Positions 37,464-55,535 are shown, counted from the first letter of the stretch. The stretch is 64,000 nt of DNA from Acidobacteriaceae bacterium (GCA_036521315.1 DATDHZ010000080.1:116756-180755); one strand, 5' to 3'. Program-made: numbers and translations. Notes: generated by a model not told the origin, from the sequence alone.

Positions 37464-37545
37464 TTAACGCGAGTAACAGAACACATGCTGTCGGTGTGCT
37501 CTGTCAGAGTCAGGGTTGTGCAAGGCTTTGTTTCTGGAGGCGAGG

Positions 37546-40731: not shown

Positions 40732-40849
40732 GCGCGGCGCAACTGGAGATCGACGGCAATCGCGAGCGGATCGCTCATCCGCTCGCCGACTCCCAGTCAC
40801 TCCTGGTCTCGCGTTCCGCGCGGCGGCACACGCACCTGCAGGAGGGTCT

Positions 40850-42031
40850 ATGCACACGGGTGGATCCCTCGCACTGCTTGCTTCGCTCGTCGCCGTTCTT
40901 TTCCCGGCCGCGTGCGGCGGAGCGGGATCGGGCTCGCAGCCGGTGCCCCCGCACACCCCGCAATCGTCCGGTTACTTTCCCTACCAGCAGGGTTGGCTCG
41001 GCGCGGACGGCGCCTATTCGATCCCGATTGCCACGAACCAGAGCCTTTGGATCTTTGCCGACACCTTCATCGGCCCCTCGACTGCAACCAGCCGCACGCA
41101 AGCCAACGGATTCATCCACAACTCCATCGCCATCTCCACCTGCTCGAGCGGCAGCTGCAGCTTTCAGTACTACTGGCCGGGAATGGGCACATCGAATCAG
41201 AGCGCAGTCTTTGCCGCTCCAGAGACGGACTGGTTCTGGCCGATGGATGGCTTCACCTATAACGGCACGCTCTATCTGGCGCTGATGCAGATGCACGCTC
41301 AGGGCAGCGGCGCGTTTGGCTTTGCCTACAGCGGCTCGCAACTAGCCAGCATCAGCAATTACAAGGCCCCACCCTCGCAGTGGAAGATCACCTACCAGCA
41401 GCTCAATAGCGGCGGCAGCGCGGTCCCTGGCATCTCCATCGTCGTCAATCAGGGACCGAGCGGCAATCCCGACCCCTCGAATCCGCAGGGCGCGAACTAC
41501 GCCTACTTCTTTACCGGTGCAGGCGCCAGGCCGTATCTTGCTCTGCTGCGCCTGCCGCTCGCCGATCTCGACAACCTCGCGCGACCAGGCAACACCGACT
41601 GGCAATATCTGAATACCAGCGGGACCTGGGAGTCCTGGCCGGACGCGGCCACTACGCTGCCCGCCGACAATGCGCCCCTCATCAATCCAGGAGCGACGGA
41701 GATGACCGTTCGCTGGCACAGCTCAACAAACCAGTGGATTGCCGTCTACCCGTCGGGTCTCAAGAACTATGCCTACTACAGCCTTTCCTCTTCCCTGACC
41801 AGCGGCTGGGGCTCGCAGGAGACGGTCTATACCTATCCGGAGATGCAGCCCGGTAATCCCAATTACACGCCCAATGTCTTTTGTTATGCGGCGAAGGAGC
41901 ACGTCGAGTTCGAAACGGCCGGACAGCTCTTTTTCACTTACGCCTGCAATTCCACCGTCGAGAGCGATGTAACGAATAACATGAACCTTTATCACCCGGT
42001 GGTCGTCACGCAGGCGCTGCCGAGCCAGTAG
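40850..42031 (+). CDS. DUF4185-like beta-propeller protein, predicted lipoprotein (putative glycoside hydrolase, GH183-like).
   Basis: Lipobox-like LVAVLFPAACGG. QQGWLGADGAYSIPIATNQSLWIFADTFIG resembles the N-terminal G-x-D-x-x-x-S...W-x-F-x-DT pattern I associate with DUF4185. The size (about 370 aa mature) fits. Family assignment is from memory only. Confidence 0.5.
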   Translation: MHTGGSLALLASLVAVLFPAACGGAGSGSQPVPPHTPQSSGYFPYQQGWLGADGAYSIPIATNQSLWIFADTFIGPSTATSRTQANGFIHNSIAISTCSSGSCSFQYYWPGMGTSNQSAVFAAPETDWFWPMDGFTYNGTLYLALMQMHAQGSGAFGFAYSGSQLASISNYKAPPSQWKITYQQLNSGGSAVPGISIVVNQGPSGNPDPSNPQGANYAYFFTGAGARPYLALLRLPLADLDNLARPGNTDWQYLNTSGTWESWPDAATTLPADNAPLINPGATEMTVRWHSSTNQWIAVYPSGLKNYAYYSLSSSLTSGWGSQETVYTYPEMQPGNPNYTPNVFCYAAKEHVEFETAGQLFFTYACNSTVESDVTNNMNLYHPVVVTQALPSQ

Positions 42032-42098
42032 GAGTTGACGGGTGATCGGGCCTACCGCGACGCGCAATTCGGAACCGAGGACGACGAATGGAACAACC

Positions 42099-43217
42099 AT
42101 GAAGATTTGCCTTCGCGCATTCGCATGGGCCGCCCCTTGCCTGCTGCTCTTTTCGGGGCACCGCGCGTTTGCGGCAGCGCCCGGCTCCACATGTACGCCG
42201 GAGTTCCCGCTCGAACACGCACAGGCTAACGGATGGCTGGGTGCGGATGCCGCCTACTCCATTCCGCTGCCCGACGGCCGCGATGTGTGGATCTTCGGCG
42301 ACACGCTCTACGGTGAGCAGCGGGTGGTCAACGGGTCGACTCCGCAGATGGTGCGCAACAGCATCGGCATCTCCACGTGCCGGCATGGCCGATGGCACGT
42401 GCAGTACGTGATCCGCAAAGATGCACAGGGGCGGCCGGACTCTTACTTCACCCCCGAGCACCCGAACACGTGGTACTGGGCGCTCGACGGATTCGTCGCC
42501 GGACGCGATTTGTGGGTGACGCTGCTCTGCGTGCGCAGTGCGCCGGCGAAAACGGCAGCCATGGGGTTCGAGACATGCGGCACGGATCTCGCCCACATTC
42601 CTTCGCCCGGCCCCGATCCGCAGAGCTGGAAGATCGACTACTTCCCACTGGTGCCCGACGGCGCGCATGCCTATCCTTCAGCAACCGCGGTGGTCGATGG
42701 TCCGGATGCGTACGTCTTCGCTCTGAACGAGAAGGGCAACCGGCCCCTCGAGGCCACGCGCATCCCGCTGTCCGGCCTCGCCGATCCGCAGAAGAATCTT
42801 GAATACCTGGCGAGCGATGGTCAGTGGAAGCCAGGATTCGATCCAGCCGCCGCCCAGGAAGTGATGCATAGGGGATCGCCTGAGCTTTCCATCCGCTACC
42901 ATCCCGAGCTCAAGCAGTGGATTGCGGTCATGTTTGACCCTGAGGCGTTCTCGTCGAGGATCCTGCTGCGCACCGCGCCCTCGATCACAGGGCCGTGGGG
43001 CGACGGTCAGGTCATCTATACCGTCCCGGAGATGCAGCCCACCACGCCGGGTTACGACAAAAACACATTTTGCTACGCTGCCAAGGAGCATCCCGAATTC
43101 GAGCGCGGCGATCTGGTCTTTACCTATGTGTGCAACACGTTCGATGTTCCAAAACTGGCTGCGAACCTAAGCATCTACTTTCCGCGCGTCGTGCGCCGGT
43201 CGATGCCGCCGCTTTAA
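42099..43217 (+). CDS. Second DUF4185-like beta-propeller protein, with a cleavable signal peptide (paralogue of the preceding gene).
   Basis: MKICLRAFAWAAPCLLLFSGHRAFAAAPG. ANGWLGADAAYSIPLPDGRDVWIFGDTLYG. The C-terminal NTFCYAAKEHPEFERGDLVFTYVCNT parallels NVFCYAAKEHVEFETAGQLFFTYACNS in the neighbour. Confidence 0.5.
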   Translation: MKICLRAFAWAAPCLLLFSGHRAFAAAPGSTCTPEFPLEHAQANGWLGADAAYSIPLPDGRDVWIFGDTLYGEQRVVNGSTPQMVRNSIGISTCRHGRWHVQYVIRKDAQGRPDSYFTPEHPNTWYWALDGFVAGRDLWVTLLCVRSAPAKTAAMGFETCGTDLAHIPSPGPDPQSWKIDYFPLVPDGAHAYPSATAVVDGPDAYVFALNEKGNRPLEATRIPLSGLADPQKNLEYLASDGQWKPGFDPAAAQEVMHRGSPELSIRYHPELKQWIAVMFDPEAFSSRILLRTAPSITGPWGDGQVIYTVPEMQPTTPGYDKNTFCYAAKEHPEFERGDLVFTYVCNTFDVPKLAANLSIYFPRVVRRSMPPL

Positions 43218-43250
43218 AAACCCGAAGCCGCGCGGGCGGAGCGAGGACGG

Positions 43251-44072
43251 TTGATGGCCGACGGTATTCGCAACCCGGTTTTATCGGAAGAACTATCAGG
43301 CCATCCCGGCGTGCGGCTGCTCACGCTGTATTCGCCCGGGCTGCGGCATCGCGCCGACGTGACGCTGTATTTGCCGCCTGCGCCCGCGGGTCGTCCCCTG
43401 CCGCTGCTCATCCTCATGCATGGCGTTTATGGCAGCCACTGGAATTGGTGTGCGATGGGAAATCTGCCGTCCATCGCAGGCGAGATGCTCACCGCGGGCG
43501 AGATCACCCCTATAGCTGTCGCGATGCCCTCCGATGGGCTTTGGAGCGACGGCAGCGGTTACGTCGCGCACAAGCGCTTCGACGCCGAGGCTTGGATCAT
43601 CGACGATGTTCCCACGTGCGTGCGGGGTTTCTTTCCGCAGATTCAAACCAGTAGGGTCTTTCTCGCTGGACTTTCCATGGGCGGATTCGGGGCTCTGCGC
43701 ATTGGCGCGAAGCATGCGTCACGAGTAGCCGGCATCTCAGCGCATTCTGCGGTCACCAGCCTCGCCGATCTGAGGCAATTCATCCAGGACCCGATTGAAG
43801 ACGACCTGACCGCCGGCAAACGCGACGCGGACCTTCTTTACTGGATGCGCCGCAATCGGTCCCGCCTTCCTCCGATCCGCTTCGACTGCGGGACAGGAGA
43901 TTCGCTGCTGGCCGGCAATCGGGCGCTTCACGCGGCACTACAGCGGGCGCGCATCCCGCATGCATACGAAGAGCACCCCGGCGGACACGACTGGGCGTAC
44001 TGGCAGCGGCACGTGCGCACCACACTGCGCTTCGCCTCGCAACTCGCCTGCGAATCCGCTCAATTTAGCTGA
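43251..44072 (+). CDS. Esterase D / 'putative esterase' (PF00756-like) alpha/beta hydrolase.
   Basis: PLPLLILMHGVYGSHWNW, nucleophile elbow GLSMGGFGAL, and C-terminal HPGGHDWAYW. Confidence 0.72.
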   Translation: MMADGIRNPVLSEELSGHPGVRLLTLYSPGLRHRADVTLYLPPAPAGRPLPLLILMHGVYGSHWNWCAMGNLPSIAGEMLTAGEITPIAVAMPSDGLWSDGSGYVAHKRFDAEAWIIDDVPTCVRGFFPQIQTSRVFLAGLSMGGFGALRIGAKHASRVAGISAHSAVTSLADLRQFIQDPIEDDLTAGKRDADLLYWMRRNRSRLPPIRFDCGTGDSLLAGNRALHAALQRARIPHAYEEHPGGHDWAYWQRHVRTTLRFASQLACESAQFS

Positions 44073-46263
44073 TCCGTCTCACGCCGCTGCTGCTCGCTGC
44101 GTATTCCGCTCCCTGGTAGGGGAGATTCTCGAGCTGCGCCGCTGCATCAAAGTCGGCGAGCTTTGGAGCGGCGCGCAGCCCGCCGTACAAAGTTGGATCC
44201 ACACCGAAGATCGACTCGATCACAAGGTCGGCGAACGCGCCAGCGGAGATGCAGCACCAGTCCTCGATGTACGGCGCATCCTCCGATGCTTTATGCGCGC
44301 CACCATAGAGAGGCGGGACCACGTCTTCGGTGAAGTGGCCCTGGCCGATCGGTCCTTGCCGGCCTGCCTTTGCTACTTCCGTCAGCCAGGGGGCAATCTG
44401 CTCGCGCCCTTCGCACTTGTATAGGCCTTTGGCGCACATGGGAGGCCACGCAGCGTACGCGCCCAGGCAACTGTGATCCGGGCGGATGTTCCACGTCGCG
44501 TCGGGATCGCCGGCCGACAGCGCGCGCATCCACTTCTTCGACGCGAGCTCTTCGTGGAAGAAGTGCGCCATCTCCGATTTTTGCCGCGCCGTCAGGTCTT
44601 CGCTCATGTTGTCGAGTACGGCAAGGAAGTCGTAGCAGTGCCGCACTTCATTGAAGCTTGCGTCCGGCTGGCCGCAGCGCCACCATCCCTTGCCGTCGAC
44701 GTAGAGCAATCGATTGATGCGGGCGGCGAGATCCTGCGCATCCACCCGCAATGCCTTCGCCTGCTGGCTTTGGCCGCGCCGCTCCAGCAGCTCGCCGACA
44801 AATCGCATGCTGGATACGTTGCCTGCGTTCATCCCCGCCACTTCATGCAGATAAGTGCTCACCACTTCGAGGAGATTCGAAATCTCTCCGTAATCCGCCA
44901 GCCCCGTGTTCGTCTTCACCAGCTTCTTCCAATACGTGGCGTGATCGTGCAGATGGTCGATCACCTTGCGTTCGCCGACCGTCTTGTCGAGCCATGCGAA
45001 ATCCCCGGTCACCCGCAGATAATTCTGCGCGCAGCGCACGATGGCCATGTCGTTGACGCCGTACCAGGGTCCGATCGCATCGCCTGTGATGTAGTCCGTC
45101 GCCAGGTGCTGATGCATATCGCGCTGGAACCAAACCTCCACCAGCCCACGCAGCGGCTGCGGATCGAGCAGGGCGAGGCTCAGGCTGGTCAGCGCTGTGT
45201 CCCAGGGAAAGCTCAGAGTCGGCAGCACGTGGCCGCTGAGCGTCAGGAGGGTTGGGCCATAAGCGGAATCCGGCGATCGTCGCCGCGCCGTCAGCAGCCC
45301 CTTGAACCCGTTGTGGTACAAGTTCCAGAGGGTTTCGTTGTCCGTCTTCAACTGCGGCAGATGACCCGAGAAATCGCTGTTGCCCGGCGTGAACGCGGAC
45401 CGCACCAGGCGGTCGAAGACCGATTCATTGTCGCGGTCGAGCACCGCGAAATTCTCCTGCAGCCGATCATGCAGGCCTTCCGCATCAGACGCGTTCGAGG
45501 CAATCGCCGCTACAAAGTGGAATTCGCGCCGCTCGTCCGGCTGCATGCGCAGCGTGTATCGCAGCATGTTGCCGCCGCGCACTTCCTGTGCCGGAGGATG
45601 AATCCCCTGGGCGCAGGCCGCGGGTGAGTGCTGCGCGGCAAAGGTAATCCGGCCCTGCGCGGCGTTCCAGGTCTGCCGGTTGTCGCCCTCCCCAGGGAGC
45701 TCGTTGAACCAGGTCGTCCCCTTGTGAATGACGCCCGCGCGCATATCGAACCCGAGCGTGACGTCGCGGCTCGTCCCAGCCATGTTGCGCACTACAATGC
45801 TCTGCACCGTGGCGCGCGTATCCGCGGGCAGGAACATCTCGGCGCGAATGAACAGCTCGTCGACGGTCTGTTCCCGCACGACGCGGTGCGGAAACCACTG
45901 GTATGTGACGGCCTGCGCCGGATCATCGGAGATCGAGGCGAGCCTTCCGTTCACAAACAGCTCGCAGGTTGTGAGGTATCCGGGGCTCCATGGAATGCTG
46001 GGAACCCCGCAGCACGCATAGGGCGGAAAGGCGATCGCGCTGATGGCGGAGACGGACTTTACCGTCTGCGCGTAGCCCCAGTCGTTCATCGCGATGGGCA
46101 GGTTGAACAGCTCCATGAATCCGTGCGTCATCCGCACGCTGGCCAGGTCGGCCAGGCCTGGGATCGCAGGACGCGACGTGGGCGAAAACGCGCGCAATGG
46201 TGAAGCGCCCGCAGCGAGCGCCGCCGCGCCCGCCGAGCCTTTGACGAAATCGCGGCGGTTCAT
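44065..46263 (-). CDS. Tat-exported large protein, probably a beta-sandwich + (alpha/alpha)6 glycosidase-like fold; family not recognised.
   Basis: Twin-arginine signal MNRRDFVKGSAGAAALAAGASPLRAF at ATG 46263, preceded by CAGGAGTG. 733 aa. The fold guess rests only on helix-rich C-terminal repeats and sugar-locus context. Confidence 0.45.
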   Translation of the reverse strand: MNRRDFVKGSAGAAALAAGASPLRAFSPTSRPAIPGLADLASVRMTHGFMELFNLPIAMNDWGYAQTVKSVSAISAIAFPPYACCGVPSIPWSPGYLTTCELFVNGRLASISDDPAQAVTYQWFPHRVVREQTVDELFIRAEMFLPADTRATVQSIVVRNMAGTSRDVTLGFDMRAGVIHKGTTWFNELPGEGDNRQTWNAAQGRITFAAQHSPAACAQGIHPPAQEVRGGNMLRYTLRMQPDERREFHFVAAIASNASDAEGLHDRLQENFAVLDRDNESVFDRLVRSAFTPGNSDFSGHLPQLKTDNETLWNLYHNGFKGLLTARRRSPDSAYGPTLLTLSGHVLPTLSFPWDTALTSLSLALLDPQPLRGLVEVWFQRDMHQHLATDYITGDAIGPWYGVNDMAIVRCAQNYLRVTGDFAWLDKTVGERKVIDHLHDHATYWKKLVKTNTGLADYGEISNLLEVVSTYLHEVAGMNAGNVSSMRFVGELLERRGQSQQAKALRVDAQDLAARINRLLYVDGKGWWRCGQPDASFNEVRHCYDFLAVLDNMSEDLTARQKSEMAHFFHEELASKKWMRALSAGDPDATWNIRPDHSCLGAYAAWPPMCAKGLYKCEGREQIAPWLTEVAKAGRQGPIGQGHFTEDVVPPLYGGAHKASEDAPYIEDWCCISAGAFADLVIESIFGVDPTLYGGLRAAPKLADFDAAAQLENLPYQGAEYAASSSGVRRIS

Positions 46264-46288
46264 GGAAATCACTCCTGGAACAGAGAAA

Positions 46289-46313
46289 TGTATGATTCGG
46301 CACAAATCATACA
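46289..46313. promoter_or_regulatory. Perfect 9-bp inverted repeat TGTATGATT-N7-AATCATACA upstream of the Tat-exported protein gene.
   Basis: The arms at 46289-46297 and 46305-46313 are exact reverse complements. Located 26-50 nt upstream of ATG 46263. Confidence 0.4.
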
Positions 46314-46405
46314 GGAATTGGTTCCGCTTTGCGGAGATTCGTTCATACAAGGCGCGAACTCGCCAGCAGCCGATTCGGCGCACTTGCCACACCGCGGCAA
46401 CGCAC

Positions 46406-47251
46406 TCAGACGCGCAGCACTTCGATGCCCAGCTTCTGATAGGGCGCGATCAGTTCATCCGTCGCGCCGCTGTCGGTGATCAGGGTGCGCAGTAAAGTGG
46501 TTTCGCAGATGCGCCAGTTTGCCACGACGTTCAGCTTTGTATGGTCGACGACGGCGATGTGTCGTCGCGCATGGCGTGCCATGGTGGCGTTCAGCTCCGC
46601 TTCATCGGCGTTGAAACAGCTGACGCCCCACTGCGGATCGATGCCGTCGGCGCCCACAAACATGGTGTGAATGAGCATATTCTCAAGGCTGCGAATCGCT
46701 GTCGGCCCCACCAGCGAGAACCATTCACCGTGCAGATGCCCTCCCGTGACGAAGACGTTAATGTCCTTCCGCTTCGAAAGCTCCATCGCGATGTTCGCAG
46801 TGTTTGTGACGACGGTGATTTTGCTGTTGAGCGGCAATCCGCGAATGATCTCCGCCGTGGTTGTGCCTGGCGTGATGGCGATCGTCTCTCCGGAGGTGAT
46901 GAGCGCGGCCGCAGCCCGTCCAATGCGCCGCTTCTCGTTCGCCTGCCGCTCCACCTGCGCTGTGAATGAGCGGTCCTTCTTGAAGGGCTCGTAGAAGAGC
47001 GGCTCGATAGAGACTGCTCCGCCGTGCGTGCGCCGCAGCAGTCCCTGTTGTTCCAGCAAGTCGAGATCGCGCCGGATGGTCACGACAGAAACGCTGAGCA
47101 GTTCGGCCAGCTCGTCGACCACCACCGAGCTGGTGTCCTGCAAAGAAGTCAAAATCGAGTTGATCCGCTGCTGTTGCTTTTCCCGGCTGTGTGATGCTTC
47201 TGCGTTGCCGCCTGCCGGCGTTGCTTTCTTCTTCTTCGCTCGTTTGACCAT
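46406..47251 (-). CDS. DeoR family transcriptional repressor with a Lys-rich N-terminal tail.
   Basis: MVKRAKKKKATPAGG... then VVVDELAELLSVSVVTIRRDLDLLEQQGLLRRTHGGAV (DeoR HTH) and a DeoRC-like C-terminus. ATG 47251 is preferred over ORF-track start 47320. Confidence 0.85.
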   Translation of the reverse strand: MVKRAKKKKATPAGGNAEASHSREKQQQRINSILTSLQDTSSVVVDELAELLSVSVVTIRRDLDLLEQQGLLRRTHGGAVSIEPLFYEPFKKDRSFTAQVERQANEKRRIGRAAAALITSGETIAITPGTTTAEIIRGLPLNSKITVVTNTANIAMELSKRKDINVFVTGGHLHGEWFSLVGPTAIRSLENMLIHTMFVGADGIDPQWGVSCFNADEAELNATMARHARRHIAVVDHTKLNVVANWRICETTLLRTLITDSGATDELIAPYQKLGIEVLRV

Positions 47252-47501
47252 GCCATGCCCTTTCCGGCGCTGCTTATCCCTCTCGCTCGCGAGCTTTTCC
47301 CATCCGAAATCACGACACAACCGAAAACCTTAGAAATCGAACGAGATGTTTATATCGGAAAGTTGCCGTGTTCGAAAGTGACGAAAAGAATCCCGAATGA
47401 AAAGCGGGACTCCGCTCGCCTGCCGGACCGGGGCGGGGAATTCTGAGGCTGGAATCCCGAACTGAGCATGACGGGGATGTAGATTTATTGCTAATTCGGC
47501 A

Positions 47502-47559
47502 AAAACGAACATGACTTATGATTGTTATCGTTGAAAACGAACAAACAATCTGCTACGAT
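47502..47559 (+). promoter_or_regulatory. Direct 10-bp repeats AAAACGAACA (47502-47511, 47534-47543) overlapping a TTGAAA-17-TACGAT promoter of the cupin-PGI operon.
   Basis: TTGAAA 47531-47536 and TACGAT 47554-47559. The -10 ends only 11 nt before ATG 47571. An imperfect complement TGTTATCGTT lies at 47523-47532. Confidence 0.45.
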
Positions 47560-47570: not shown

Positions 47571-48158
47571 ATGAAAAGCTCTGCTCCTGGGCCTCCGGCC
47601 GTCCTCGCTCCTCCTGTTTTGCTGGACCTGGCTCGCGGGGTCATGGCCGGCGAGGGGATCATCGAAAGCCGCAAGACCTTCGGCGAATTGGCGAATGTCT
47701 TCCGCGATCGCGCCGCGTACGCGCACTTCGATCCGGCAGGCGAGATCTACCGGGTCCGCTCGTGGATGCCGGTTGTTTCGGGTACTGAGGGCGGTCTATT
47801 CCTGGGCGTGACGGTGCTGCAGCCAGGAAAAGTAGGGGACGAATACTTCATGACGCACGGTCACTTTCACGCGAATCCCACACGCGCCGAATACTACGCC
47901 ACCGTCTCCGGCAGCGGGATGCTTATCCGCATGGATCGGGAGCGCCGCACCTGGGGGGAACCAATGGCTCCCGGTTCCCTGCACTACATTCAGGGCGAGC
48001 ATGCGCATCGCGTCGCCAACACCGGCAGCGTGCCGCTCATCTTCTGGGCGTGCTGGGGCAGCGATGCCGGCTATGACTACGGAACGATTGCCGAACGCGG
48101 CTTCGGAGCCCGCCTGGTGGAGCGCGAGGGCCAGCCGGTGTTCCTCGCCGAAGAGTGA
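47571..48158 (+). CDS. Cupin-type (archaeal-type) glucose-6-phosphate isomerase.
   Basis: TVLQPGKVGDEYFMTHGHFHANPTRAEYYATVSGSGMLI and SDAGYDYGTIAERGFGARLVEREGQPVFL align with Pyrococcus furiosus cPGI (TVLYPGKVGKEFFFTKGHFHAKLDRAEVYVALKGKGGMLL; ADAGHDYGTIAEKGFSKIVIEENGEVKVV) as I recall it. Confidence 0.85.
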   Translation: MKSSAPGPPAVLAPPVLLDLARGVMAGEGIIESRKTFGELANVFRDRAAYAHFDPAGEIYRVRSWMPVVSGTEGGLFLGVTVLQPGKVGDEYFMTHGHFHANPTRAEYYATVSGSGMLIRMDRERRTWGEPMAPGSLHYIQGEHAHRVANTGSVPLIFWACWGSDAGYDYGTIAERGFGARLVEREGQPVFLAEE

Positions 48159-48162
48159 TCCA

Positions 48163-48948
48163 GTGACTACGGACCTCTTCGATCCCGGCTTTGCGATCCG
48201 CCTCGACCCCGACAGCCTCGGGTTTCAGTATGGCCCCGGCGTCTTCGGCCCTGCTCCGGAACTGCGACGACTCGACGACATCCGGCCAAGCCTGCGCGAT
48301 CCGCAGTGCAGCGGCCCCGATCCGGTATACGGGATCGCGATGGACGTGGGGAAAGAGGAGGATCGTGCGGAGTTGCAGCGGCGGTCTCTGCTCTTCGGCG
48401 TGGTGGTCTACGCCAGCGGCCGGCTGGGCGAGGAGCCGGTGCGCAGCCAGGGCCACGTCCACGCCATTGCACCGCATTGCGGGTGGTCTACGCCGGAGCT
48501 GTTCGAGATTTGGGAAGGCCGCACCGTCATCTACGCACAGCAATCCGCCGGTGACGATCCCGGCCGCTGCATTGCCGTCGAAGCCGGCCCTGGCGATCAT
48601 GTTGTTGTGCCGCCGGGCTGGGCGCACGCGGTCATCAACGCGAGCGAATCGGAGCGGATGGTCTTTGGCGCGCTTTGCGAACGGCAGTATGGGTTTGTTT
48701 ACGATGAAATCCGCGCCCACGGAGGTCTCGCGTGGTTTCCCCTGCTGCGCGACGGAGGCGTGGAGTGGCAGGCGAACCCGCGGTACGCGTCTTCCCTGCT
48801 GAGCGTTCGCGCCGCACGCCAATATCCGGAGCTCGGAGTGGCTCCGGGCGTGCCGATCTATCGGCAGTTCGAAGATCATCCGGACCGCCTGCAGTGGGTT
48901 TCGGAACCGGCTCGCGCCGCTTCGTTCTGGACCACCCTGGAGCCCTGA
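48163..48948 (+). CDS. Second, divergent cupin-fold glucose-6-phosphate isomerase family (PF06560-like) protein.
   Basis: GTG 48163 lies 5 nt after the upstream stop and is in frame with ORF 48001-48948. GEEPVRSQGHVHAIAPHCGWSTPELFEIWEGRTVIYAQ...GDHVVVPPGWAHAVINASESERMVFGALCERQYGFVYDEI reproduces the HxH...E...H cupin metal-site spacing. Confidence 0.62.
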   Translation: MTTDLFDPGFAIRLDPDSLGFQYGPGVFGPAPELRRLDDIRPSLRDPQCSGPDPVYGIAMDVGKEEDRAELQRRSLLFGVVVYASGRLGEEPVRSQGHVHAIAPHCGWSTPELFEIWEGRTVIYAQQSAGDDPGRCIAVEAGPGDHVVVPPGWAHAVINASESERMVFGALCERQYGFVYDEIRAHGGLAWFPLLRDGGVEWQANPRYASSLLSVRAARQYPELGVAPGVPIYRQFEDHPDRLQWVSEPARAASFWTTLEP

Positions 48949-48955
48949 AGACCGC

Positions 48956-51205
48956 ATGAAAGCTTTCGATCGCCGTACGTTCCTTACCGGCAGCGCCGCC
49001 GCTGCCCTGGTCACCGGGCTCGAACGGCCCGCCTCCGCCGCCCACCAGGGAAGGCACCCTGCGCCAGTCGCGACCGACCAGGCGGACTCGTTCAACGCAG
49101 TCGTGGACTTCCGCTATGCTCCCGCGGATTATCAATCGACGATTTGCTTCCCCGATGATCCCTTCAAGACGCTGGTCGGCAAGTGGGGCGATCTACGCTG
49201 CGACTTTCCCCACGATCAGTTCGCGCCGATCAATCAGTTCGGAACCATCGTGGAGTTCACGCTCTCTGGCATGGGCCGCGATACCTGGGCCGCACAAACG
49301 ATGGAGGCGCCCGGCGTCCCCATTCTCCATACGCGTCTCGAACGGGCCACGGCGACTATCGAGCTGATCGCATTCTGCACGCGCCGCGAAAATGAAGGGC
49401 GCGTCGACAACGTGCTCATGGAGATTCGCGCTCGCGACGAGGACGCAATGGTAACCCCGCTGGTCCGGATCCGCTCCGGCGAGAAATTTCAATGGAAGCC
49501 GACGCCCTCCGGCATTACCAGCGTGACGCGCGGCACAGGGCAGAATCCCTGGATGGTCGCCATCCCGCAGGACAACGCATCGCGTGATGTCTCCTGGTTA
49601 CCGGAGGAAGGCGGCTACCGCCTCACCCTCGAGCATGGAACAGCGAGCCAGACACGCCCGCTGCGCTACCTCTTCCGATTCCCGCAGTCCGCAACCCCCC
49701 CCGGCCTCGACACCTCCGCCACTGCGGACGAACTGCTCGCCGAGGTGCGTTCATGGTGGACCCAGTGGCGCGCATTCAGCGCTCCCGTCTCGTGGTCGAT
49801 CCCAGGCACGCAGGGTGAGTTCCTCACCGCCTGCGCGCGCAATATCCAGCAGGCGCGGGAAGTGAAGAACGGACGCCTCGTCTTCGAAGTCGGCCCCACC
49901 GTCTACCGCGGACTGTGGATCGTCGATGGCAATTTCATTCTCGAAGCCGCGCGCTACCTCGGGTTCGATGAAGCAGCCGACCAGGGCCTGCTTTCGGAGT
50001 GGAATCAGCAGGTCTCCACCGGCCAGATCATCGCGTCGGGCGGCAAGGAGCACTGGAAGGACACGGCGATCGCCATGTTCACACTGGTGCGCGCCTGCGA
50101 GCTGAAGCAGGACTGGTCGCTGCTCCGCCGGCTGGCGCCTAACGTCGGCCACGCCATCGAGTTCCTCATCCAGCTGCGTGACGATGCTCGCAAGGATGAT
50201 TCCCCGAACGGCCGTTACGGCCTCCTGGCGCCTGGATTTCCAGACGGCGGCATCGGCGGCGTCTGCTACGACTTCACCAACACGCTGTGGACGCTGGCCG
50301 GGTTGCGTGCCGTCGCCACCGCGAATCAAAGGCTGCAAATCGCCGACCTGTCGCGCGCCGACGGCTTTTACCGCGAGCTGCGCACCGCTTTCGACGCCGC
50401 CGCGCGCGCAGAAATGGTTCACGACCCGCGTGGCTTCACGTACCTGCCCATGCTCATGCACGACGATCCGCAGATGCATCTGGACCCGTGGGATCGTCCT
50501 CGTCCGCAAAGCGCGCAGTGGGCGCTCTCCCACACCATTTTTCCTGGAGACGTGTTTGCGAAGGATGATCCCGTGGTGCGCGGCCACATCGCGCTCATGC
50601 AGGCCTGCACGCAGGAGGACATTCCCGCGGAAACCGGTTGGCTGCACCACGAGGGCGTGTGGAATTACAACGCGGCGTTCGTGGCGGAAGTTTACCTGTG
50701 GGCCGGAATGCGCGAGTGGGCGCATCGCGCCTTCACCGGATACCTGAATCATGCTTCGCCGCTGCATGCGTGGCGCGAAGAACAGCCTCTGCAGCACGCG
50801 CTGCTCGGAGATTTATGGGGCGATATGCCGCACAACTGGGCCAGCGCGGAATGCATTCGCTATTTGCGCCACCGGCTTGTGCTCGAAGACAGCGAAACGC
50901 TGCGCCTGCTCGAAGGCGTACAGCCGACGGATCTGCTGGATCGCCGTCCCTTTTCTCTCGCTGGATCACCGACCCGCTTCGGCCGCGTGGCGCTTTCCGC
51001 GGAACCTTCAGGAAAGCGCGGATGGAAAGCGCGTTTTACCCGCGAAGCCTCCGCAGCGCCGCCGCAGGCCGTGCGAATCCCAGCCACGCTGGGCGCCGGA
51101 GCCGCCTTCACGCGCGTCGAAGGCGCGAGCACTCGCACACTCGCATCGGGGACGATCAGTATCGACCCTGCCGCAAATTCCTGGACTGCACTCTGGGAAA
51201 GCTGA
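48956..51205 (+). CDS. Tat-exported (alpha/alpha)6-barrel-like protein; putative glycoside hydrolase of unrecognised family.
   Basis: Twin-arginine signal MKAFDRRTFLTGSAAAALVTGLERPASA. Helix-rich repeats follow (GLWIVDGNFILEAARYLG, WKDTAIAMFTLVRACEL, TNTLWTLAGLRAVATA, WNYNAAFVAEVYLWAGM, DMPHNWASAECIRYLRH). Confidence 0.45.
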   Translation: MKAFDRRTFLTGSAAAALVTGLERPASAAHQGRHPAPVATDQADSFNAVVDFRYAPADYQSTICFPDDPFKTLVGKWGDLRCDFPHDQFAPINQFGTIVEFTLSGMGRDTWAAQTMEAPGVPILHTRLERATATIELIAFCTRRENEGRVDNVLMEIRARDEDAMVTPLVRIRSGEKFQWKPTPSGITSVTRGTGQNPWMVAIPQDNASRDVSWLPEEGGYRLTLEHGTASQTRPLRYLFRFPQSATPPGLDTSATADELLAEVRSWWTQWRAFSAPVSWSIPGTQGEFLTACARNIQQAREVKNGRLVFEVGPTVYRGLWIVDGNFILEAARYLGFDEAADQGLLSEWNQQVSTGQIIASGGKEHWKDTAIAMFTLVRACELKQDWSLLRRLAPNVGHAIEFLIQLRDDARKDDSPNGRYGLLAPGFPDGGIGGVCYDFTNTLWTLAGLRAVATANQRLQIADLSRADGFYRELRTAFDAAARAEMVHDPRGFTYLPMLMHDDPQMHLDPWDRPRPQSAQWALSHTIFPGDVFAKDDPVVRGHIALMQACTQEDIPAETGWLHHEGVWNYNAAFVAEVYLWAGMREWAHRAFTGYLNHASPLHAWREEQPLQHALLGDLWGDMPHNWASAECIRYLRHRLVLEDSETLRLLEGVQPTDLLDRRPFSLAGSPTRFGRVALSAEPSGKRGWKARFTREASAAPPQAVRIPATLGAGAAFTRVEGASTRTLASGTISIDPAANSWTALWES

Positions 51206-51206: not shown

Positions 51207-52937
51207 CTAAACGCGCACGCGTGCCTGAATCGTGCCCAGCTCCCGCGCGGGGTTCGGCGTGCAAGGACGAATCGTATAGGGCCCCACCGCGGCCGGGATG
51301 ATGAAAGTCTCCGCATAGTGAACGACAAACGGCGCAAACGCGTCCGTCGGGCTTTCCACCACCGCCGCATCGCCTTCAATCAGATTGAGGACGTGCACGG
51401 TACCCTTCGTATCGTGCGGCACCGTGCCGGTGAACCAGTGGCGTCGCGTCTCAATGAACTCCAGCTCGTGCAGCCCGGTGCGCTCTTCGCGCCAGCCTTC
51501 CCCGCTCGCCGTCGCCTCCACGCGATTGATCAGCGACCGCCGCACCCACTCCGTCGTCCGGCTCCACTGGATATTGGCTTCGCCATACCGCAGATGGATC
51601 GGCCGCGGCCGTCCGTCCAGCCCCACCCGTCCCCAGTCCCACAGCTTGAACGTGAAAATGTACGGCGTGGCGCTGATCTCCAGCACCATGCTGTCCTTGC
51701 CGGAGCAGTGCACTGTGCCCGCGGGAATCAGAAAATGATCGTGCTTCTTCGCCGGAAAACGATTGACGTACTGCCCTGCCGGAAAATCGAAGTCCTCTTC
51801 CTGCGCACGATGCAGATCGCGCAGCATCGCGCTCTTGTCCACGCCTTCCTTCAGCCCCAGATACACGCACGCGCCCGGCTCCGCGTCCAGCATGTAGTAG
51901 CTCTCGTCCTGCGTGTAATCCATCCCGAAGTGCTCGCGAATAAACGACGGCAGCGGATGCACCTGCAGCGACAGATTGCCTCCGCCGACGGTGTCGAGGA
52001 AATCGAATCGAATCGGAAACTCTGCCCCGAAGCGCTCGACGATCACGTTGCCCAGCAGTTCCTGCGGGTGCGCCAGCACCAGATTGATCGACGGAACCTC
52101 CACGCGTTCCGCCCCGAAGCCCAGCAGCAGGCTGTTCTCCTCCGGAACGCAGTCGAAGCACCAAGCATGATTCGGCGCATCGCCCGCCGGAACACCGCAC
52201 ACCCGCTCCATCCAGTGCCCGCCCCACGGCCCCGGATCAAAGAACGGAACGACGCGGAACGGTCGCCGGACAACGTCGCGCAGGCAGCGCCGGAACACCT
52301 CACCGCTGATCGCCTTCGGGTACCCGGGCACACTCGTATCAAGCAGCACGCCGATGTGGTCGAAGAGGCGCATTTTCAGACGGTCTGCTGAGCGCCAGTC
52401 GACAAAAAATGATCGCTTGTACTTGAGGGACGGCGTCTCTTCCAAATTTTCCGCGCCGAAGTTGCCGCTCTCATTGCGCCGCTGCCGCATCTGGATTTCC
52501 CAGCGCGCCAGATCGGCGTACGCCAGCACATCGGAAGCCGGGCAGACCAGCGAAGCCCCCGTTCCAATCACCACCACAGCCGCATCATCCTGCGCGCATT
52601 GTTTCTGCGCTTCCGCCAGTTTCTCCGCGTCGAGGAAATCGGCAATCTCGATCGTGTTCATCCGGCCGAAGACCGGATCGCCGCCCAGCACCGGCTCCAG
52701 CATTGCGCCGATTTCTTCAGGTGAACGCAGCAGCGCATTCGCATCGATGAAGCAGGCTTCCGGCAGCGCCTGCCGCAGCCCGCGCTCCACTTCCGCGAGA
52801 TGCACGCCCGGATAGCACTCCACCACGAGTTTGCCGCGCGCTCCGACGCGCTCGTGCAAGTGCGCACCAATGCGCGCCCAGCCGGTCAGGCACTCGCTGG
52901 CGCTGCCCGCCTCCACGCATGGAAACCTATCGTACAA
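51207..52937 (-). CDS. Class I mannose-6-phosphate isomerase (cupin) with a ~230-aa N-terminal extension.
   Basis: FFDPGPWGGHWM, FPIRFDFLDTVGGGNLSLQVHP, QDESYYMLDA and IPAGTVHCSG match type I PMI motifs. TTG start at 52937 with GGAGAG 7 nt upstream. 11-nt overlap with the ROK gene stop. Confidence 0.72.
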   Translation of the reverse strand: MYDRFPCVEAGSASECLTGWARIGAHLHERVGARGKLVVECYPGVHLAEVERGLRQALPEACFIDANALLRSPEEIGAMLEPVLGGDPVFGRMNTIEIADFLDAEKLAEAQKQCAQDDAAVVVIGTGASLVCPASDVLAYADLARWEIQMRQRRNESGNFGAENLEETPSLKYKRSFFVDWRSADRLKMRLFDHIGVLLDTSVPGYPKAISGEVFRRCLRDVVRRPFRVVPFFDPGPWGGHWMERVCGVPAGDAPNHAWCFDCVPEENSLLLGFGAERVEVPSINLVLAHPQELLGNVIVERFGAEFPIRFDFLDTVGGGNLSLQVHPLPSFIREHFGMDYTQDESYYMLDAEPGACVYLGLKEGVDKSAMLRDLHRAQEEDFDFPAGQYVNRFPAKKHDHFLIPAGTVHCSGKDSMVLEISATPYIFTFKLWDWGRVGLDGRPRPIHLRYGEANIQWSRTTEWVRRSLINRVEATASGEGWREERTGLHELEFIETRRHWFTGTVPHDTKGTVHVLNLIEGDAAVVESPTDAFAPFVVHYAETFIIPAAVGPYTIRPCTPNPARELGTIQARVRV

Positions 52938-53859
52938 AGCCGCTCTCCTGCTGAAACAAAGGAACCACGCCGAGCAGCGCCGCGTCGTTGCCCAGCCGCG
53001 CCGCCCGCACCGCCGGATTGCCCCATGGCGTCCACGCGTAGCGATTCACGTAGTCCTGAATGAAGGGAAGAATCACATCGCCGCTCTTCATCACCCCTCC
53101 GCCGTAGAGCAGCACGTCGGGATCGAAGGCGTGCACGGCCGCGACCGCCGCGGCGCCCCACACGCTCAGACAATGCTGTTGCACTTCCTGCGCGACCCGA
53201 TCGCCGGCCGCCGCGCAGGCAAATACGTTTTCGAAATTGATCTCCAGCCCCCGCAGCGCGCTCGCGGCAAAGCCCGGCCACTCCGCGCATACCAGCGGCA
53301 GCGACCAGCCTGACGCTTCCGACTCCGCACATCCGATCGCTCCACAGGTACACTTGCGGCCGTTGAACTTGACAGGGACATGACCGCCCAGCACGCCTGC
53401 CTGGCCGTGTTTGCCCTGGAGCGGCCGTCCATCCATCATGGCGACGCCACCGATGCCCGTGCCGAGCGTGAACATCACCACGTCGGTTTCGCCCTGGGCC
53501 GCGCCCGCCGAACACTCGCCCAGCAGCGCCAGGCGCGCATCGTTCTCAAGATTCAGTGGCAGGCCGAACTGGCTCTGCGCCCACGCGCGCAGATCGAGGT
53601 CCACGGCGTCCACAAATTTTCCGTTGGTCGACGAGACGCGCGAGTTGCGCGCATCCACGAGCCCGCAGAATCCGAATCCCACACCCTGCGCGCTGCGCTC
53701 GTCGTCGAGCCGGCGCAGCACATCCGCTATCTCCGGGAGAATCGTACCCAGCGCGACGCCGTCACCGAATGTGATCGCGTCCCGCGCCACGATCGCCTGA
53801 TCTTCGACGAGCGCGCATGCGGCGTGGCTGCCTCCCAGATCAACCGCCAGGATTCTCAT
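52927..53859 (-). CDS. ROK family sugar kinase.
   Basis: MRILAVDLGGSHAACALV (ATP-binding DxGG), GTGIGGV, and the zinc motif CTCGAIGCAESEASG. ATG 53859 is preferred over ORF-track start 53997. Confidence 0.85.
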   Translation of the reverse strand: MRILAVDLGGSHAACALVEDQAIVARDAITFGDGVALGTILPEIADVLRRLDDERSAQGVGFGFCGLVDARNSRVSSTNGKFVDAVDLDLRAWAQSQFGLPLNLENDARLALLGECSAGAAQGETDVVMFTLGTGIGGVAMMDGRPLQGKHGQAGVLGGHVPVKFNGRKCTCGAIGCAESEASGWSLPLVCAEWPGFAASALRGLEINFENVFACAAAGDRVAQEVQQHCLSVWGAAAVAAVHAFDPDVLLYGGGVMKSGDVILPFIQDYVNRYAWTPWGNPAVRAARLGNDAALLGVVPLFQQESGFVR

Positions 53860-53996
53860 TGCGCACCCCCCGAAAGCCGGAAGCGCAACTGGACCCGCGG
53901 GACACAGAAGCACAACGGACCCGACTTCCGCGGAGTTGGCTCGTTCCGAAAAAGTTCGAGCAGCGTCATGGCAGGACAAACCAAGCCTGAACCGCA

Positions 53997-54021
53997 ATCA
54001 TAGCAGGTAAATGTTCGTTTT
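53997..54021 (-). promoter_or_regulatory. AAAACGAACAT-TTAC-CTGCTATGAT module upstream of the ROK-PMI operon, near-identical to the cupin-PGI promoter module.
   Basis: The minus-strand reading of 54021-53997 is AAAACGAACATTTACCTGCTATGAT. Compare AAAACGAACAAACAATCTGCTACGAT at 47534-47559. Confidence 0.45.
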
Positions 54022-54158
54022 AGGCGTAAAAGAACACGAATAATGATCGAATTCCATTGCATCGCCCACAGTCTCCACTCGGAACGCACTCCTGCCCCGT
54101 GGAATCGGGTCCGCAGCGAAGTCCCTGCTTTCCCGGGTGCGCCAGCCGCGGCAATCGC

Positions 54159-55535
54159 TTAGCCTTCCCACTCGTGCTGAATCTGTTCGAGGGTCTTGCC
54201 CCGCGTCTCCGGCACCATCTTCCAGATAAACACGAACGCGACTGCCGAGAGCGCCGCGTAGATGCCAAAGGTGCCGCTCACCCCCAGCGCGCGGATGAGT
54301 GAAAGAAACGTCAGCGTCACCACGAGCGTTCCGGTCCAGAGCGTCGAGGTCGCAATGGATGCGGCGCGCCCGCGAATCTTCGTCGGAAAGATCTCGGAGA
54401 TGACCACCCAGGGAATCGGGCCCATGGCAAATGCGAAGAATCCTGTGTAGCCGAGAATGCACGCGAGCACGACAAACGGCGAGACACCGGAAATGCGATC
54501 CATGATGACAAACAGCAACAGTGTGACGGTCATCCCGGCCGAAGCGGTCAGGAGCATCGTTCGCCGGCCCCAGCGATCGAGGCAATACAGCGCAATCAGG
54601 GTGCACGCCAGATTCGTGCCTCCGATGATCACGTTGGCCATCAGCGCCGTTCCCGTCGTTTGTCCGCTGAAGTGCTGGGTGATGAGGATCGATCCGTAAT
54701 ACAGCACGGTATTGATGCCAGTGATCTGGCACAGAATTGCTAATCCCAGCGCGATGGTCAGCGGCCGCCGCATCGCCGGCGAGAATACCTCGCTCCACGA
54801 TCCTTCTTCGCTCGACGCAGCCTCTTCGACAGCCTTTACTTCGACATCAGCCTGCAGAGCGCCGTAAATGCGCGCCAGGACGCGGCGCCCCTTCTCGCGC
54901 TGCCCATGGCTGATGAGCCAGCGCGGGCTCTCAGGAATGAACAGCAGCCCCAAAAAGAAACCAATCGCCGGTAGCGCGGCAACGCCGAGCATCCACCGCC
55001 AGCTGGCATCGCCCAGCCCGGCCAGGCCCCAGCCCACCACATAGGCCACCAGAATGCCCACCACAATCGCGAGCTGGTTCATCGACACGAGGCGCCCCCG
55101 ATTGCGTGCCGGCGCGACTTCCGCGATGTAGACCGGCGTCAGCACCGATGAGAGCCCGATGGCCAATCCGCCTGCCAGCCTGCCGATAGCGAAGACCGTG
55201 ACGGATTGTGCCAGGGCCGCCACGACCGTTGACCCTGCAAACAGGATGGCCGCAATCAGCAGCGAAGCACGCCGCCCCAGGCGATCCCCTATCAGGCTCG
55301 CGCCCGCCGCTCCGAGAAGGCAGCCCAGCAGCAGCGCGCTCGCCGCCATCTCTGTCTGGACCGTTGAGAGCGCGAAGTCGCGCTGCAGAAAAAGCAGAAC
55401 CCCGTTGATCACGGCCGTGTCAAACCCGAAGAGAAATCCTGAGATCGCGGCGACGACAGCGAGGAACAGAACGTAAATCGGCGACTTGGCCTTCGCGCCG
55501 CCAGGCGTTGTATCGACTACCGCGGAAATGTGCAT
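54159..55535 (-). CDS. MFS sugar porter family transporter (sugar:H+ symporter).
   Basis: Twelve hydrophobic segments; GDRLGRR, PESPRWL and PETRGKTLEQI signatures. Confidence 0.92.
   Translation of the reverse strand: MHISAVVDTTPGGAKAKSPIYVLFLAVVAAISGFLFGFDTAVINGVLLFLQRDFALSTVQTEMAASALLLGCLLGAAGASLIGDRLGRRASLLIAAILFAGSTVVAALAQSVTVFAIGRLAGGLAIGLSSVLTPVYIAEVAPARNRGRLVSMNQLAIVVGILVAYVVGWGLAGLGDASWRWMLGVAALPAIGFFLGLLFIPESPRWLISHGQREKGRRVLARIYGALQADVEVKAVEEAASSEEGSWSEVFSPAMRRPLTIALGLAILCQITGINTVLYYGSILITQHFSGQTTGTALMANVIIGGTNLACTLIALYCLDRWGRRTMLLTASAGMTVTLLLFVIMDRISGVSPFVVLACILGYTGFFAFAMGPIPWVVISEIFPTKIRGRAASIATSTLWTGTLVVTLTFLSLIRALGVSGTFGIYAALSAVAFVFIWKMVPETRGKTLEQIQHEWEG

What the first reader, a model, noticed from the sequence alone, without database searches (positions are those of the whole stretch)
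47571..48948. Tandem cupin-type phosphoglucose isomerase genes, one archaeal-type and one divergent
Seen: the first gene aligns almost motif-for-motif with Pyrococcus cPGI (GKVGDEYFMTHGHFHA...AEYY; DAGYDYGTIAERGF). The second starts 5 nt downstream at GTG 48163. It keeps the cupin HxH...E...H spacing (SQGHVHA...ELFEIWEG...PPGWAHAVIN) and the (Q/D)YG..Y(D/G).I tail, but is otherwise divergent and longer at the N-terminus. Established: cupin PGIs are mainly euryarchaeal, with sporadic bacterial occurrences ascribed to lateral transfer. Inference: the pair is either a hetero-oligomer or two aldose-ketose isomerases with different sugar-phosphate specificities (for example Glc6P and Man6P or another hexose-6-P). 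They serve the adjacent glycosidase/PMI/ROK genes rather than central glycolysis.
Basis: partly seen in the sequence, partly recalled or inferred. Interest (0 to 1): 0.6.

Follow-up and report, generated by a model that had tools for sequence, protein, structure and literature searches.

The report
Conserved three-cupin sugar-phosphate isomerase module
The two adjacent "archaeal-type glucose-6-phosphate isomerase" genes are real but only distantly related, and together with a long mannose-6-phosphate-isomerase-like gene they form an uncharacterised sugar-breakdown module found in soil Acidobacteria, enterobacteria and low-GC bacteria.

Summary
Gene A (47571-48158, 195 aa) and gene B (48163-48948, GTG start, 261 aa) both pass Pfam PF06560. 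Both keep the His/His/Glu/His metal site and both are under purifying selection (dN/dS 0.10-0.20).

They are not a recent duplicate. A belongs to the short, archaeal-like branch of the family and B to the deep long-form branch.

A keeps the cPGI substrate-binding signature. B has an invariant remodelled pocket (V71, S85, F99, C152, F158 in P. furiosus numbering), an 11-residue metal-loop spacer and a 53-aa C-terminal extension. The extra length is not mainly N-terminal.

The pair is accessory. It occurs in about 12% of sampled Acidobacteriaceae, independently of whether a conventional pgi is present.

In that sample B always co-occurs with a 576-aa PMI-like cupin (51207-52937). The trio recurs in a Cedecea-like enterobacterial locus and in low-GC bacteria, where a mannose-family PTS replaces the MFS porter plus ROK kinase found here. 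This points to a sugar-6-phosphate input.

B-only and A-only genomes argue against an obligate heteromer. My best reading is that A and B are separate, non-redundant isomerases of an unknown hexose-phosphate pathway. No biochemistry or transcript data were available.

The parts
47571..48158 (+). Gene A: short-form PF06560 cupin (195 aa), archaeal-cPGI-like. Keeps T71, P75, G79, E81, T85, G87, H88, H90, E97, Y99, H136, N140 and Y160. Has W152 and Y158, and QG in place of PP131-132.
48163..48948 (+). Gene B: long-form PF06560 cupin (261 aa, GTG start). The metal ligands are kept. The pocket is remodelled: V71, S85, F99, C152, F158. The H90-E97 spacer is 11 residues and carries an invariant extra His105. 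Residues 209-261 form a C-terminal extension.
48956..51205 (+). Tat-signal 749-aa protein, 7 nt after B and probably in the same operon. It has no Pfam hit. The model shows a beta-sandwich plus an (alpha/alpha)6 glycosidase-like fold.
51207..52937 (-). Long PMI-like cupin (576 aa). Its C-terminal half resembles type I mannose-6-P isomerases (QVHP...DESYY...GTVH). It is present in every sampled genome that has B, and in other phyla.
52927..53997 (-). ROK-family sugar kinase. The probable ATG start is at 53969.
54159..55535 (-). MFS sugar porter (XylE/GlcP-like).
46406..47320 (-). DeoR/AgaR-like repressor, divergent from the cupin operon.
47497..47545 (.). Two AAAACGAACA boxes (47502-47511 within the repeat arm 47497-47512, and 47534-47543) in the promoter of gene A. 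The same box lies upstream of the ROK gene.
54011..54026 (.). Copy of the AAAACGAACAT box (reverse strand) upstream of the ROK / PMI-like operon.
37516..46392 (.). Frequently linked outer part of the locus: a TonB-dependent receptor, two DUF4185 (GH183-like) genes, an esterase and a Tat-exported 775-aa protein.

Best explanation
A and B are two separately translated, non-redundant metal-dependent aldose-ketose isomerases from the two deepest sampled branches of the cupin PGI family. With the 576-aa PMI-like cupin they form a conserved cytoplasmic module. This module acts on a sugar 6-phosphate made either by an MFS porter plus ROK kinase (as here) or by a mannose-family PTS (enterobacterial and low-GC versions). 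In this genome the module is repressor-controlled and linked to periplasmic glycan-degrading genes, and it is unrelated to housekeeping PGI. Shown: family membership, metal-site conservation, purifying selection, gene linkage, cross-phylum conservation, and independence from pgi. Inferred: A retains Glc6P/Fru6P-type chemistry. B uses the same His/His/Glu/His metal centre and Glu base on a different sugar phosphate, because five substrate-pocket positions are replaced and then held invariant. The enzymes work in series or in parallel, not as one obligate complex. The substrate is unknown.
For: Both genes belong to PF06560. B's fold is that of cPGI. All four metal ligands and G87 and Y160 are invariant in 76 A and 79 B orthologues; A keeps T71, T85 and Y99, while B has V71, S85, F99, C152 and F158 in 78-79 of 79. 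dN/dS is 0.10-0.20 for both. A and B share only a 26-residue BLASTP match (E 2e-4) and are split by a branch with 100% support. They are adjacent in 74 of 78 loci. In 401 family genomes, 43 have both, 5 have B only and 1 has A only (Fisher 5e-51). All 48 B-positive genomes have the PMI-like gene (4e-39). In 11 genomes the order is A-ROK-PMI-B. The trio sits with a mannose-family PTS in a Cedecea-like locus (B 52% and PMI-like 56% identical) and in a 34%-GC locus, with the same signature residues; a third locus (L100, 32% GC) carries the short-long cupin pair inside a mannose-family PTS operon. The same operator box lies before the cupin and ROK operons. The cupins' presence is independent of pgi presence.
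Against: The roles of T71 and Y99 in substrate binding rest on my memory of the A. fulgidus cPGI mutagenesis paper, which is not held here. Only the H158 and Y152 roles were read from a paper. Column 52 aligns differently in two alignments. Very tight A-B spacing also fits a heteromer. If all three enzymes only perform 1,2-isomerisations, only Glc/Fru/Man 6-phosphates are reachable, and three enzymes would then be more than needed.
Confidence: 0.58

Rival explanations
1. A and B form a hetero-oligomeric cupin isomerase, with one catalytic subunit and one specificity or regulatory subunit, or with shared sites.
For: The gap is 4 nt here and -13 to +76 nt in 74 loci, and there is an 8-nt overlap in the Cedecea-like locus. 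Of 49 genomes with either gene, 43 have both. The short-long pair is kept across three phyla. P. furiosus cPGI is a homodimer (established knowledge).
Against: Five genomes at least 90% complete have B without A, and one has A without B. B occurs without A on contigs of 9-14 kb in other lineages. In 11 genomes two genes separate A from B. No A-B fusion was found in 80 loci. Both keep complete metal sites.
Confidence: 0.17
2. B acts on an unphosphorylated sugar before the kinase, for example as a D-arabinose, D-mannose or lyxose-type isomerase. It would feed monosaccharides released by the neighbouring GH183-like enzymes.
For: B replaces polar pocket residues with hydrophobic ones. DUF4185/GH183 enzymes are endo-D-arabinofuranases, and known D-arabinan loci carry an isomerase plus a kinase. 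A DUF4185 orthologue is present in 28 of 48 B-positive genomes. A GH172 gene lies near ROK-B-PMI in another lineage.
Against: In three PTS-linked loci the sugar arrives already phosphorylated and no kinase is present. Twenty B-positive genomes lack the DUF4185 orthologue. DeoR-type regulators usually sense sugar phosphates (established knowledge).
Confidence: 0.12
3. Both are plain, redundant glucose-6-phosphate isomerases.
For: Both are annotated this way in public records. Long forms with canonical residues probably are the PGI in some Bacillota, because genome G772 has no PF00342.
Against: Deep divergence with co-retention across phyla. B has invariant changes at substrate-pocket positions. 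The distribution is independent of pgi. B is more conserved than A.
Confidence: 0.08
4. B has left isomerase chemistry, for example to become an epimerase or another metal-cupin enzyme acting on a pathway intermediate.
For: The remodelled pocket, an extra invariant His105 in the metal loop and the new C-terminal domain. Three 1,2-isomerases seem more than a Glc/Fru/Man pathway needs.
Against: The Glu97-equivalent base and all ligands are invariant. The closest folds are cPGIs only.
Confidence: 0.05

Closest known systems
Cupin-type phosphoglucose isomerase (cPGI) of Pyrococcus furiosus / Thermococcus litoralis (PDB 1x7n, 1qxj, 1j3p)
   Same: Same Pfam family and fold. Both have the His88/His90/Glu97/His136 metal site. 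A also keeps T71, T85, Y99 and Y160 and has about the same length.
   Different: In the archaea cPGI is the glycolytic PGI. Here the genes are accessory, repressor-controlled and paired. B changes five pocket residues, lengthens the metal loop and adds a 53-aa C-terminal extension. A has W152 and lacks the PP of the second motif.
Long-form bacterial PF06560 proteins (Clostridia/Bacillota, Armatimonadota), annotated glucose-6-phosphate isomerase
   Same: B belongs to this 250-290-aa branch.
   Different: Most of them keep T71, T85 and Y99, are single-copy and sit in housekeeping contexts. Only the B lineage has V71, S85, C152 and F158 and travels with the PMI-like gene.
Type I phosphomannose isomerase (B. 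subtilis 1qwr, A. fulgidus AF0035 1zx5)
   Same: The partner gene (51207-52937) matches these at E 1e-10 to 1e-8 and has the Q-x-H...E...H motif.
   Different: It has about 220 extra N-terminal residues, no Pfam hit above threshold, and constant linkage to B.
ManXYZ PTS plus ManA mannose pathway, and the LacAB/LacC/LacD tagatose-6-phosphate pathway
   Same: Uptake gives a hexose 6-phosphate that is then isomerised. Some B contexts carry a PfkB kinase and a DeoC/LacD-type aldolase.
   Different: The module uses three cupin isomerases and no RpiB-type isomerase. The substrate is unknown.
D-arabinan utilisation loci (GH183, GH172, GH116 with an isomerase and a kinase; PMC10115798, PMC10509167)
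   Same: DUF4185/GH183-like genes, an exported (alpha/alpha)6 enzyme and an isomerase-plus-kinase logic are all present.
   Different: The DUF4185 hits here are weak (35-48 bits). The link to B is only partial. The known loci use a fucose-isomerase-type enzyme, not cupin PGIs.

Membership tests
Cupin-type PGI family (Pfam PF06560) | Profile match above the curated cut-off (20.7 bits) | tested here: met
   A 67.4 bits, B 63.0 bits. They are the only two such genes in the genome.
Cupin-type PGI family (PF06560) | Metal ligands His88, His90, Glu97, His136 (P. furiosus numbering) | tested here: met
   Invariant in 76 A and 79 B orthologues.
Cupin-type PGI family (PF06560) | cPGI fold | tested here: met
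   The B model (pLDDT 95) has P. furiosus and T. litoralis PGI as its top 12 hits, E about 1e-12. A was judged by sequence only, at E about 1e-30.
Functional cPGI (Glc6P/Fru6P isomerase sensu Hansen et al. 2005) | Signature 1, T-x3-P-x3-G-x-E-x3-T-x-G-H-x-H-x(6-11)-E-x-Y (recalled from memory; paper not held) | tested here: not met
   A meets it at every position. B does not: T71V, P75A/S/G, T85S, Y99F. B's spacer of 11 is within range. The row status refers to B.
Functional cPGI (Glc6P/Fru6P isomerase sensu Hansen et al. 2005) | Signature 2, P-P-x3-H-x3-N (recalled from memory) | tested here: inconclusive
   B meets it in full. A keeps H136 and N140 but has G at 132 in 69 of 76 orthologues and a variable residue at 131.
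Functional cPGI (Glc6P/Fru6P isomerase sensu Hansen et al. 2005) | Catalyses Glc6P to Fru6P | not testable with these tools
   No enzymology was possible.
Functional cPGI (Glc6P/Fru6P isomerase sensu Hansen et al. 2005) | Serves as the cell's glycolytic PGI | tested here: not met
   A conventional PGI is present. Cupin presence is independent of strong PF00342 across 66 family genomes.
Hetero-oligomeric enzyme | The two subunits are always present together | tested here: not met
   There are 5 B-only genomes and 1 A-only genome.
Hetero-oligomeric enzyme | Physical A-B complex | not testable with these tools
   No multimer prediction or experiment was available.
Type I PMI (for the partner gene 51207-52937) | Profile match and Q-x-H...E...H metal motif | tested here: inconclusive
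   Pfam PF20511 gives only 12 bits. PDB PMIs match at E 2.6e-10 and 1e-8, and the motif is visible in the translation.

The most novel reading that the evidence does not exclude
The short cupin, the long cupin and the 576-aa PMI-like protein together constitute a previously undescribed cupin-only pathway. It would convert a non-glucose hexose 6-phosphate (galacto-, allo- or talo-configured, or an amino-sugar phosphate) into fructose 6-phosphate. In this reading the B lineage defines a new enzyme specificity, or even epimerase chemistry, inside the cPGI fold, and the pathway has spread horizontally between Acidobacteriota, Enterobacteriaceae and low-GC bacteria.
Probability: 0.38. Interest if true: 0.75.

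Novelty: new variant of a known kind. Interest (0 to 1): 0.62.

Why it matters
Thousands of public proteins of the B lineage are labelled glucose-6-phosphate isomerase, although the residues thought to hold the substrate are replaced. If B has another substrate, that annotation is wrong. It would also mean that a sugar pathway shared by abundant soil Acidobacteria and by enterobacteria is missing from metabolic maps. The Cedecea-type locus (regulator, PTS and three cupins between housekeeping genes) is a compact, clonable system in which the substrate could be found directly. That result would in turn indicate what the unknown Tat-exported glycosidase-like proteins and GH183-like enzymes of the acidobacterial locus release.

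Tried and rejected
**Explanations rejected or weakened**
- Recent tandem duplication: rejected. A and B share only 26 alignable residues by BLASTP and lie on opposite sides of the deepest split in the tree.
- A-B fusion genes as evidence for a complex: none in 80 loci.
- Cupins replacing a missing pgi: rejected, because their distribution is independent of pgi.
- Pseudogene or decaying copy: rejected. dN/dS is 0.1-0.2, and B is more conserved than A.
- A strict link to D-arabinan degradation: only partial. 28 of 48 B-positive genomes have the DUF4185 orthologue, and the PTS-type loci have no glycosidases.

**Searches that gave nothing**
- NCBIfam has no model for either cupin.
- Sequence search of the 749-aa and 775-aa Tat proteins against the PDB gave nothing useful. 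The two are not detectable paralogues.
- The Cedecea-type pair has no match in 5,426 E. coli genomes.
- Literature searches (cupin-type PGI, PF06560, cupin plus ROK plus PMI operon) found no description of the module.
- The D-arabinan paper's supplements do not name its isomerase.

**Sources that could not be used**
- Hansen et al. 2005 could not be read.

Full report
**1. The observation**

The window carries two same-strand ORFs. Gene A runs 47571-48158 (ATG, 195 aa). Gene B runs 48163-48948 (GTG, 261 aa), beginning 4 nt after A's stop codon.

Both match Pfam PF06560 above its 20.7-bit cut-off: A at 67.4 bits and B at 63.0 bits. NCBIfam has no model for either. They are the only PF06560 genes in the 5.25-Mb genome.

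A aligns end to end with the solved cupin PGIs of P. furiosus and T. litoralis at E about 1e-30. B aligns with them at only 5e-7.

An AlphaFold model of B, built on 46 orthologues, is confident (pLDDT 95.1). Its twelve best Foldseek matches in the PDB are those same cPGIs (E about 1e-12, target-normalised TM 0.75-0.79). Every other cupin scores at or above 1e-6.

B's extra length is mainly a C-terminal extension, residues 209-261, modelled as one strand and three helices. There is also a 5-residue insertion in the loop between the second His and the Glu ligand, and only about ten extra residues at the N-terminus.

**2. Both are working genes, and they are old paralogues**

Against four orthologous loci, dN/dS is 0.10-0.20 for A and 0.11-0.16 for B.

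A and B share only one 26-residue BLASTP segment (E 2e-4).

In a tree of 90 family members the deepest branch (support 100) separates two clades:
- a short-form clade: A, the two archaeal enzymes, and a third canonical-like type found singly in two other Acidobacteriaceae genomes;
- a long-form clade: B plus 250-290-aa proteins from Clostridia, Bacillota and Armatimonadota.

So this is not a local duplication.

**3. Active-site comparison**

I mapped 76 A and 79 B orthologues onto P. furiosus numbering.
- Both clades keep His88, His90, Glu97, His136, Gly87, Asn140 and Tyr160 without exception.
- A also keeps T/S71, P75, T85 and Y99. It has W152 and H or Y at 158, and G at 132.
- B has V71, S85, F99 and F158 in all 79, and C152 in 78. 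Its H90-E97 spacer is 11 residues instead of 6, with an invariant extra His (His105 of B).

PMC6627849 states that His158 and Tyr152 take part in proton transfer and contact the substrate. That Thr71 and Tyr99 bind substrate, and the two family signature patterns used in the membership table, are from my memory of Hansen et al. 2005. Those papers are not held here.

Column 52 aligned differently in two alignments, so I do not use it.

Most long-form proteins outside the B lineage keep T71, T85 and Y99. Only B's nearest relatives, at 38% identity or more, share V71, S85, C152 and F158. B is therefore a derived, tightly constrained offshoot of the long-form branch. It is also more conserved than A across the same loci: 60-89% identity against 47-87%.

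**4. Distribution and linkage in Acidobacteriaceae**

Eighty related loci, all from Terriglobales MAGs, were fetched.
- A sits directly upstream of B, with a gap of -13 to +76 nt, in 74 of the 78 loci that are not cut by a contig end.
- In three loci the order is A, ROK kinase, PMI-like gene, B.
- No locus fuses A and B.

In an even sample of 401 genomes of the same family, 51 have a PF06560 gene. Of these:

| Content | Genomes |
|---|---|
| A and B both | 43 (three of them with two pairs) |
| B only | 5 |
| A only | 1 |
| Third, canonical-like type only | 2 |

Protein searches confirmed these classes.

All 48 B-positive genomes also have an orthologue of the 576-aa gene at 51207-52937. That gene occurs in 85 of the 401 genomes (Fisher 4e-39). 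In 11 genomes it lies, together with ROK, between A and B.

An orthologue of the second DUF4185 gene is present in 39 genomes, 28 of which have B (2e-21).

Only 4 of 401 genomes in a phylum-wide sample carry true PF06560 genes. The module is therefore a patchy accessory trait.

**5. It is not the housekeeping PGI**

This genome has a full-length conventional PGI on another contig (751 bits).

Across the family, a strong PF00342 gene is present in 14 of 27 cupin-bearing genomes and in 18 of 39 cupin-free genomes. There is no compensation pattern.

By contrast, long-form PF06560 genes with canonical residues are common and single-copy in one Bacillota-type phylum sample (74 of 301 genomes, 140-165 bits). 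One such genome has the gene beside rapZ, yvcK and whiA and has no PF00342 at all. There it probably is the PGI. This is an inference, because the completeness of that genome is unknown.

**6. The neighbourhood here**

- Divergent from A lies a DeoR/AgaR-like regulator.
- Seven nucleotides after B begins a Tat-signal 749-aa protein with no Pfam hit. Its medium-confidence model (pLDDT 72) resembles beta-sandwich plus (alpha/alpha)6 glycosidases and phosphorylases. The matches are GH95, GH94, GH65 and the GH116 exo-beta-D-arabinofuranosidase ExoMA2, all at E 1e-11 to 1e-12, so the family cannot be told.
- Convergent with it are the PMI-like gene and the ROK kinase, followed by an MFS sugar porter.
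- The box AAAACGAACA(T) occurs twice before A and once before ROK. Related boxes are conserved before A in other loci. This fits common control, presumably by the DeoR-like protein.
- Upstream lie a TonB-dependent receptor, two DUF4185 genes, an esterase and another Tat-exported 775-aa protein.

DUF4185 is GH183, the endo-D-arabinofuranases. Known D-arabinan loci carry an isomerase and a kinase. The hits here are weak (35-48 bits), so the substrate cannot be assumed.

**7. Conservation across phyla, which is the main new point**

The B lineage is not confined to Acidobacteria.
- **Cedecea-like enterobacterial locus**, inserted between rihC and dapB. It holds a 186-aa short cupin overlapping by 8 nt a 260-aa long cupin (52% identical to B), a mannose-family PTS (EIIA-D), a 582-aa homologue of the PMI-like protein (56% identical over its full length) and a LacI-type regulator, and nothing else.
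- **A 34%-GC locus.** The order is GntR, EIIA-D, short cupin, 581-aa PMI-like protein (46% identical), long cupin.
- **A 32%-GC contig.** The order is EIIB-D, short cupin, long cupin, EIIA.

In all three loci the short protein has the A signature (T/S71, T85, Y99, G132, W152). The long one has the B signature (V71, S85, C152, F158). The low-GC short protein falls inside the A clade (support 97/99, on a long branch).

Other lineages have B with the PMI-like gene but no A:
- ROK-B-PMI beside a GH172 gene;
- B-PMI beside a mannose-family PTS, a DeoC-type aldolase and a ribulose-phosphate-3-epimerase-like gene;
- PMI-B with a 4-nt overlap.

One further lineage has DeoC-type aldolase, B, ROK, with a PfkB kinase fusion nearby.

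Where Acidobacteria use a porter plus a ROK kinase, the others use a PTS, which imports and phosphorylates in one step. The simplest common denominator is therefore that the cupins receive a sugar 6-phosphate.

**8. Interpretation**

- **Preferred reading (0.58).** A, B and the PMI-like protein are separate metal-dependent isomerases of one accessory pathway for a hexose phosphate. A is close to classical cPGI chemistry, and B is specialised for another substrate.
- **Obligate A-B heteromer (0.17).** The tight spacing and cross-phylum pairing favour it. The B-only and A-only genomes, B-without-A loci and split operons count against it.
- **B acting on a free sugar before the kinase (0.12).** This fits its hydrophobic pocket and the GH183/GH172 neighbours, but it is hard to square with the kinase-free PTS loci.
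- **Simple redundancy (0.08) and non-isomerase chemistry (0.05).** These are the remaining options.

What the substrate is remains open. With 1,2-isomerisation alone only Glc, Fru and Man 6-phosphates interconvert. Three enzymes therefore hint at either a different sugar series or an epimerisation step, but this is speculation.

**9. Limits**

- There is no biochemistry and no multimer modelling.
- Residue roles partly rest on memory.
- Most comparison genomes are MAGs.
- Earlier first-stage notes from other genomes describe the same ROK, long-PMI, cupin chains. I used them as leads and re-derived the pattern from my own loci.

**10. Verdict**

It is a conserved, unstudied module that includes a new variant of cupin sugar-phosphate isomerase. 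No paper in the held library describes it.

Noticed in passing
window 51207-52937 (-): 576-aa protein with no Pfam family above threshold. Its C-terminal half resembles type I PMI and it has about 220 extra N-terminal residues. It is full-length conserved (46-56% identity) in enterobacterial and low-GC loci and is present in 85 of 401 family genomes. It deserves its own study.
   Followed up: partly
window 48956-51205 (+) and 44065-46392 (-): Two Tat-signal proteins of 749 and 775 aa without Pfam hits, and not detectable paralogues of each other. The 749-aa model looks like a beta-sandwich plus (alpha/alpha)6 glycosidase (GH95/GH94/GH65/GH116-like). A periplasmic enzyme is apparently co-transcribed with two cytoplasmic isomerases.
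   Followed up: partly
window 47497-47545 and 54011-54026: The AAAACGAACA(T) box is shared by the promoter of the cupin operon (two copies) and that of the ROK/PMI-like operon. Similar boxes occur upstream of gene A in 28 of 76 related loci, and a variant AAAAGAACA box in 32.
   Followed up: partly
window 53998-54798 (-): The 266-aa ORF overlaps the 3' end of the MFS porter gene (which stops at 54159) and has no family hit. It is almost certainly spurious.
   Followed up: yes
family-level genome sample: About half of the sampled Acidobacteriaceae genomes (34 of 66), with or without cupins, lack a strong PF00342 PGI. In one search, seven of the eight such genomes showed only a weak partial match (44-63 bits) and one showed none; one search listed only matches at E <= 1e-50, so weak matches were not assessed for the other 26. 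Which enzyme is their PGI is unclear.
   Followed up: no
L092 (Bacillota genome G772): Long-form PF06560 genes with canonical residues are present in 74 of 301 genomes of one Bacillota-type phylum sample, usually single-copy. In G772 the gene sits in the order PK_C-domain gene, GPI, rapZ, yvcK, whiA, and no PF00342 was found. Cupin PGIs are much commoner in bacteria than the literature implies.
   Followed up: partly
genomes G634 and G735 (L090, L091): A third, canonical-like short cPGI (PF06560 104-115 bits, 33-35% identical to A) occurs singly in two Acidobacteriaceae genomes that have neither B nor the PMI-like gene.
   Followed up: partly
window 55683-59942: An SDR, a mannonate dehydratase (UxuA), an SMP30 lactonase and a DUF4432-like gene lie next to the porter. 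They may form an oxidative sugar-acid branch beside the phosphorylative module.
   Followed up: no
window 43251-44072 (+): An esterase of Pfam PF00756 sits among the GH183-like genes. To my knowledge, that family also contains the mycolyltransferases and esterase D. Its substrate is unknown.
   Followed up: no
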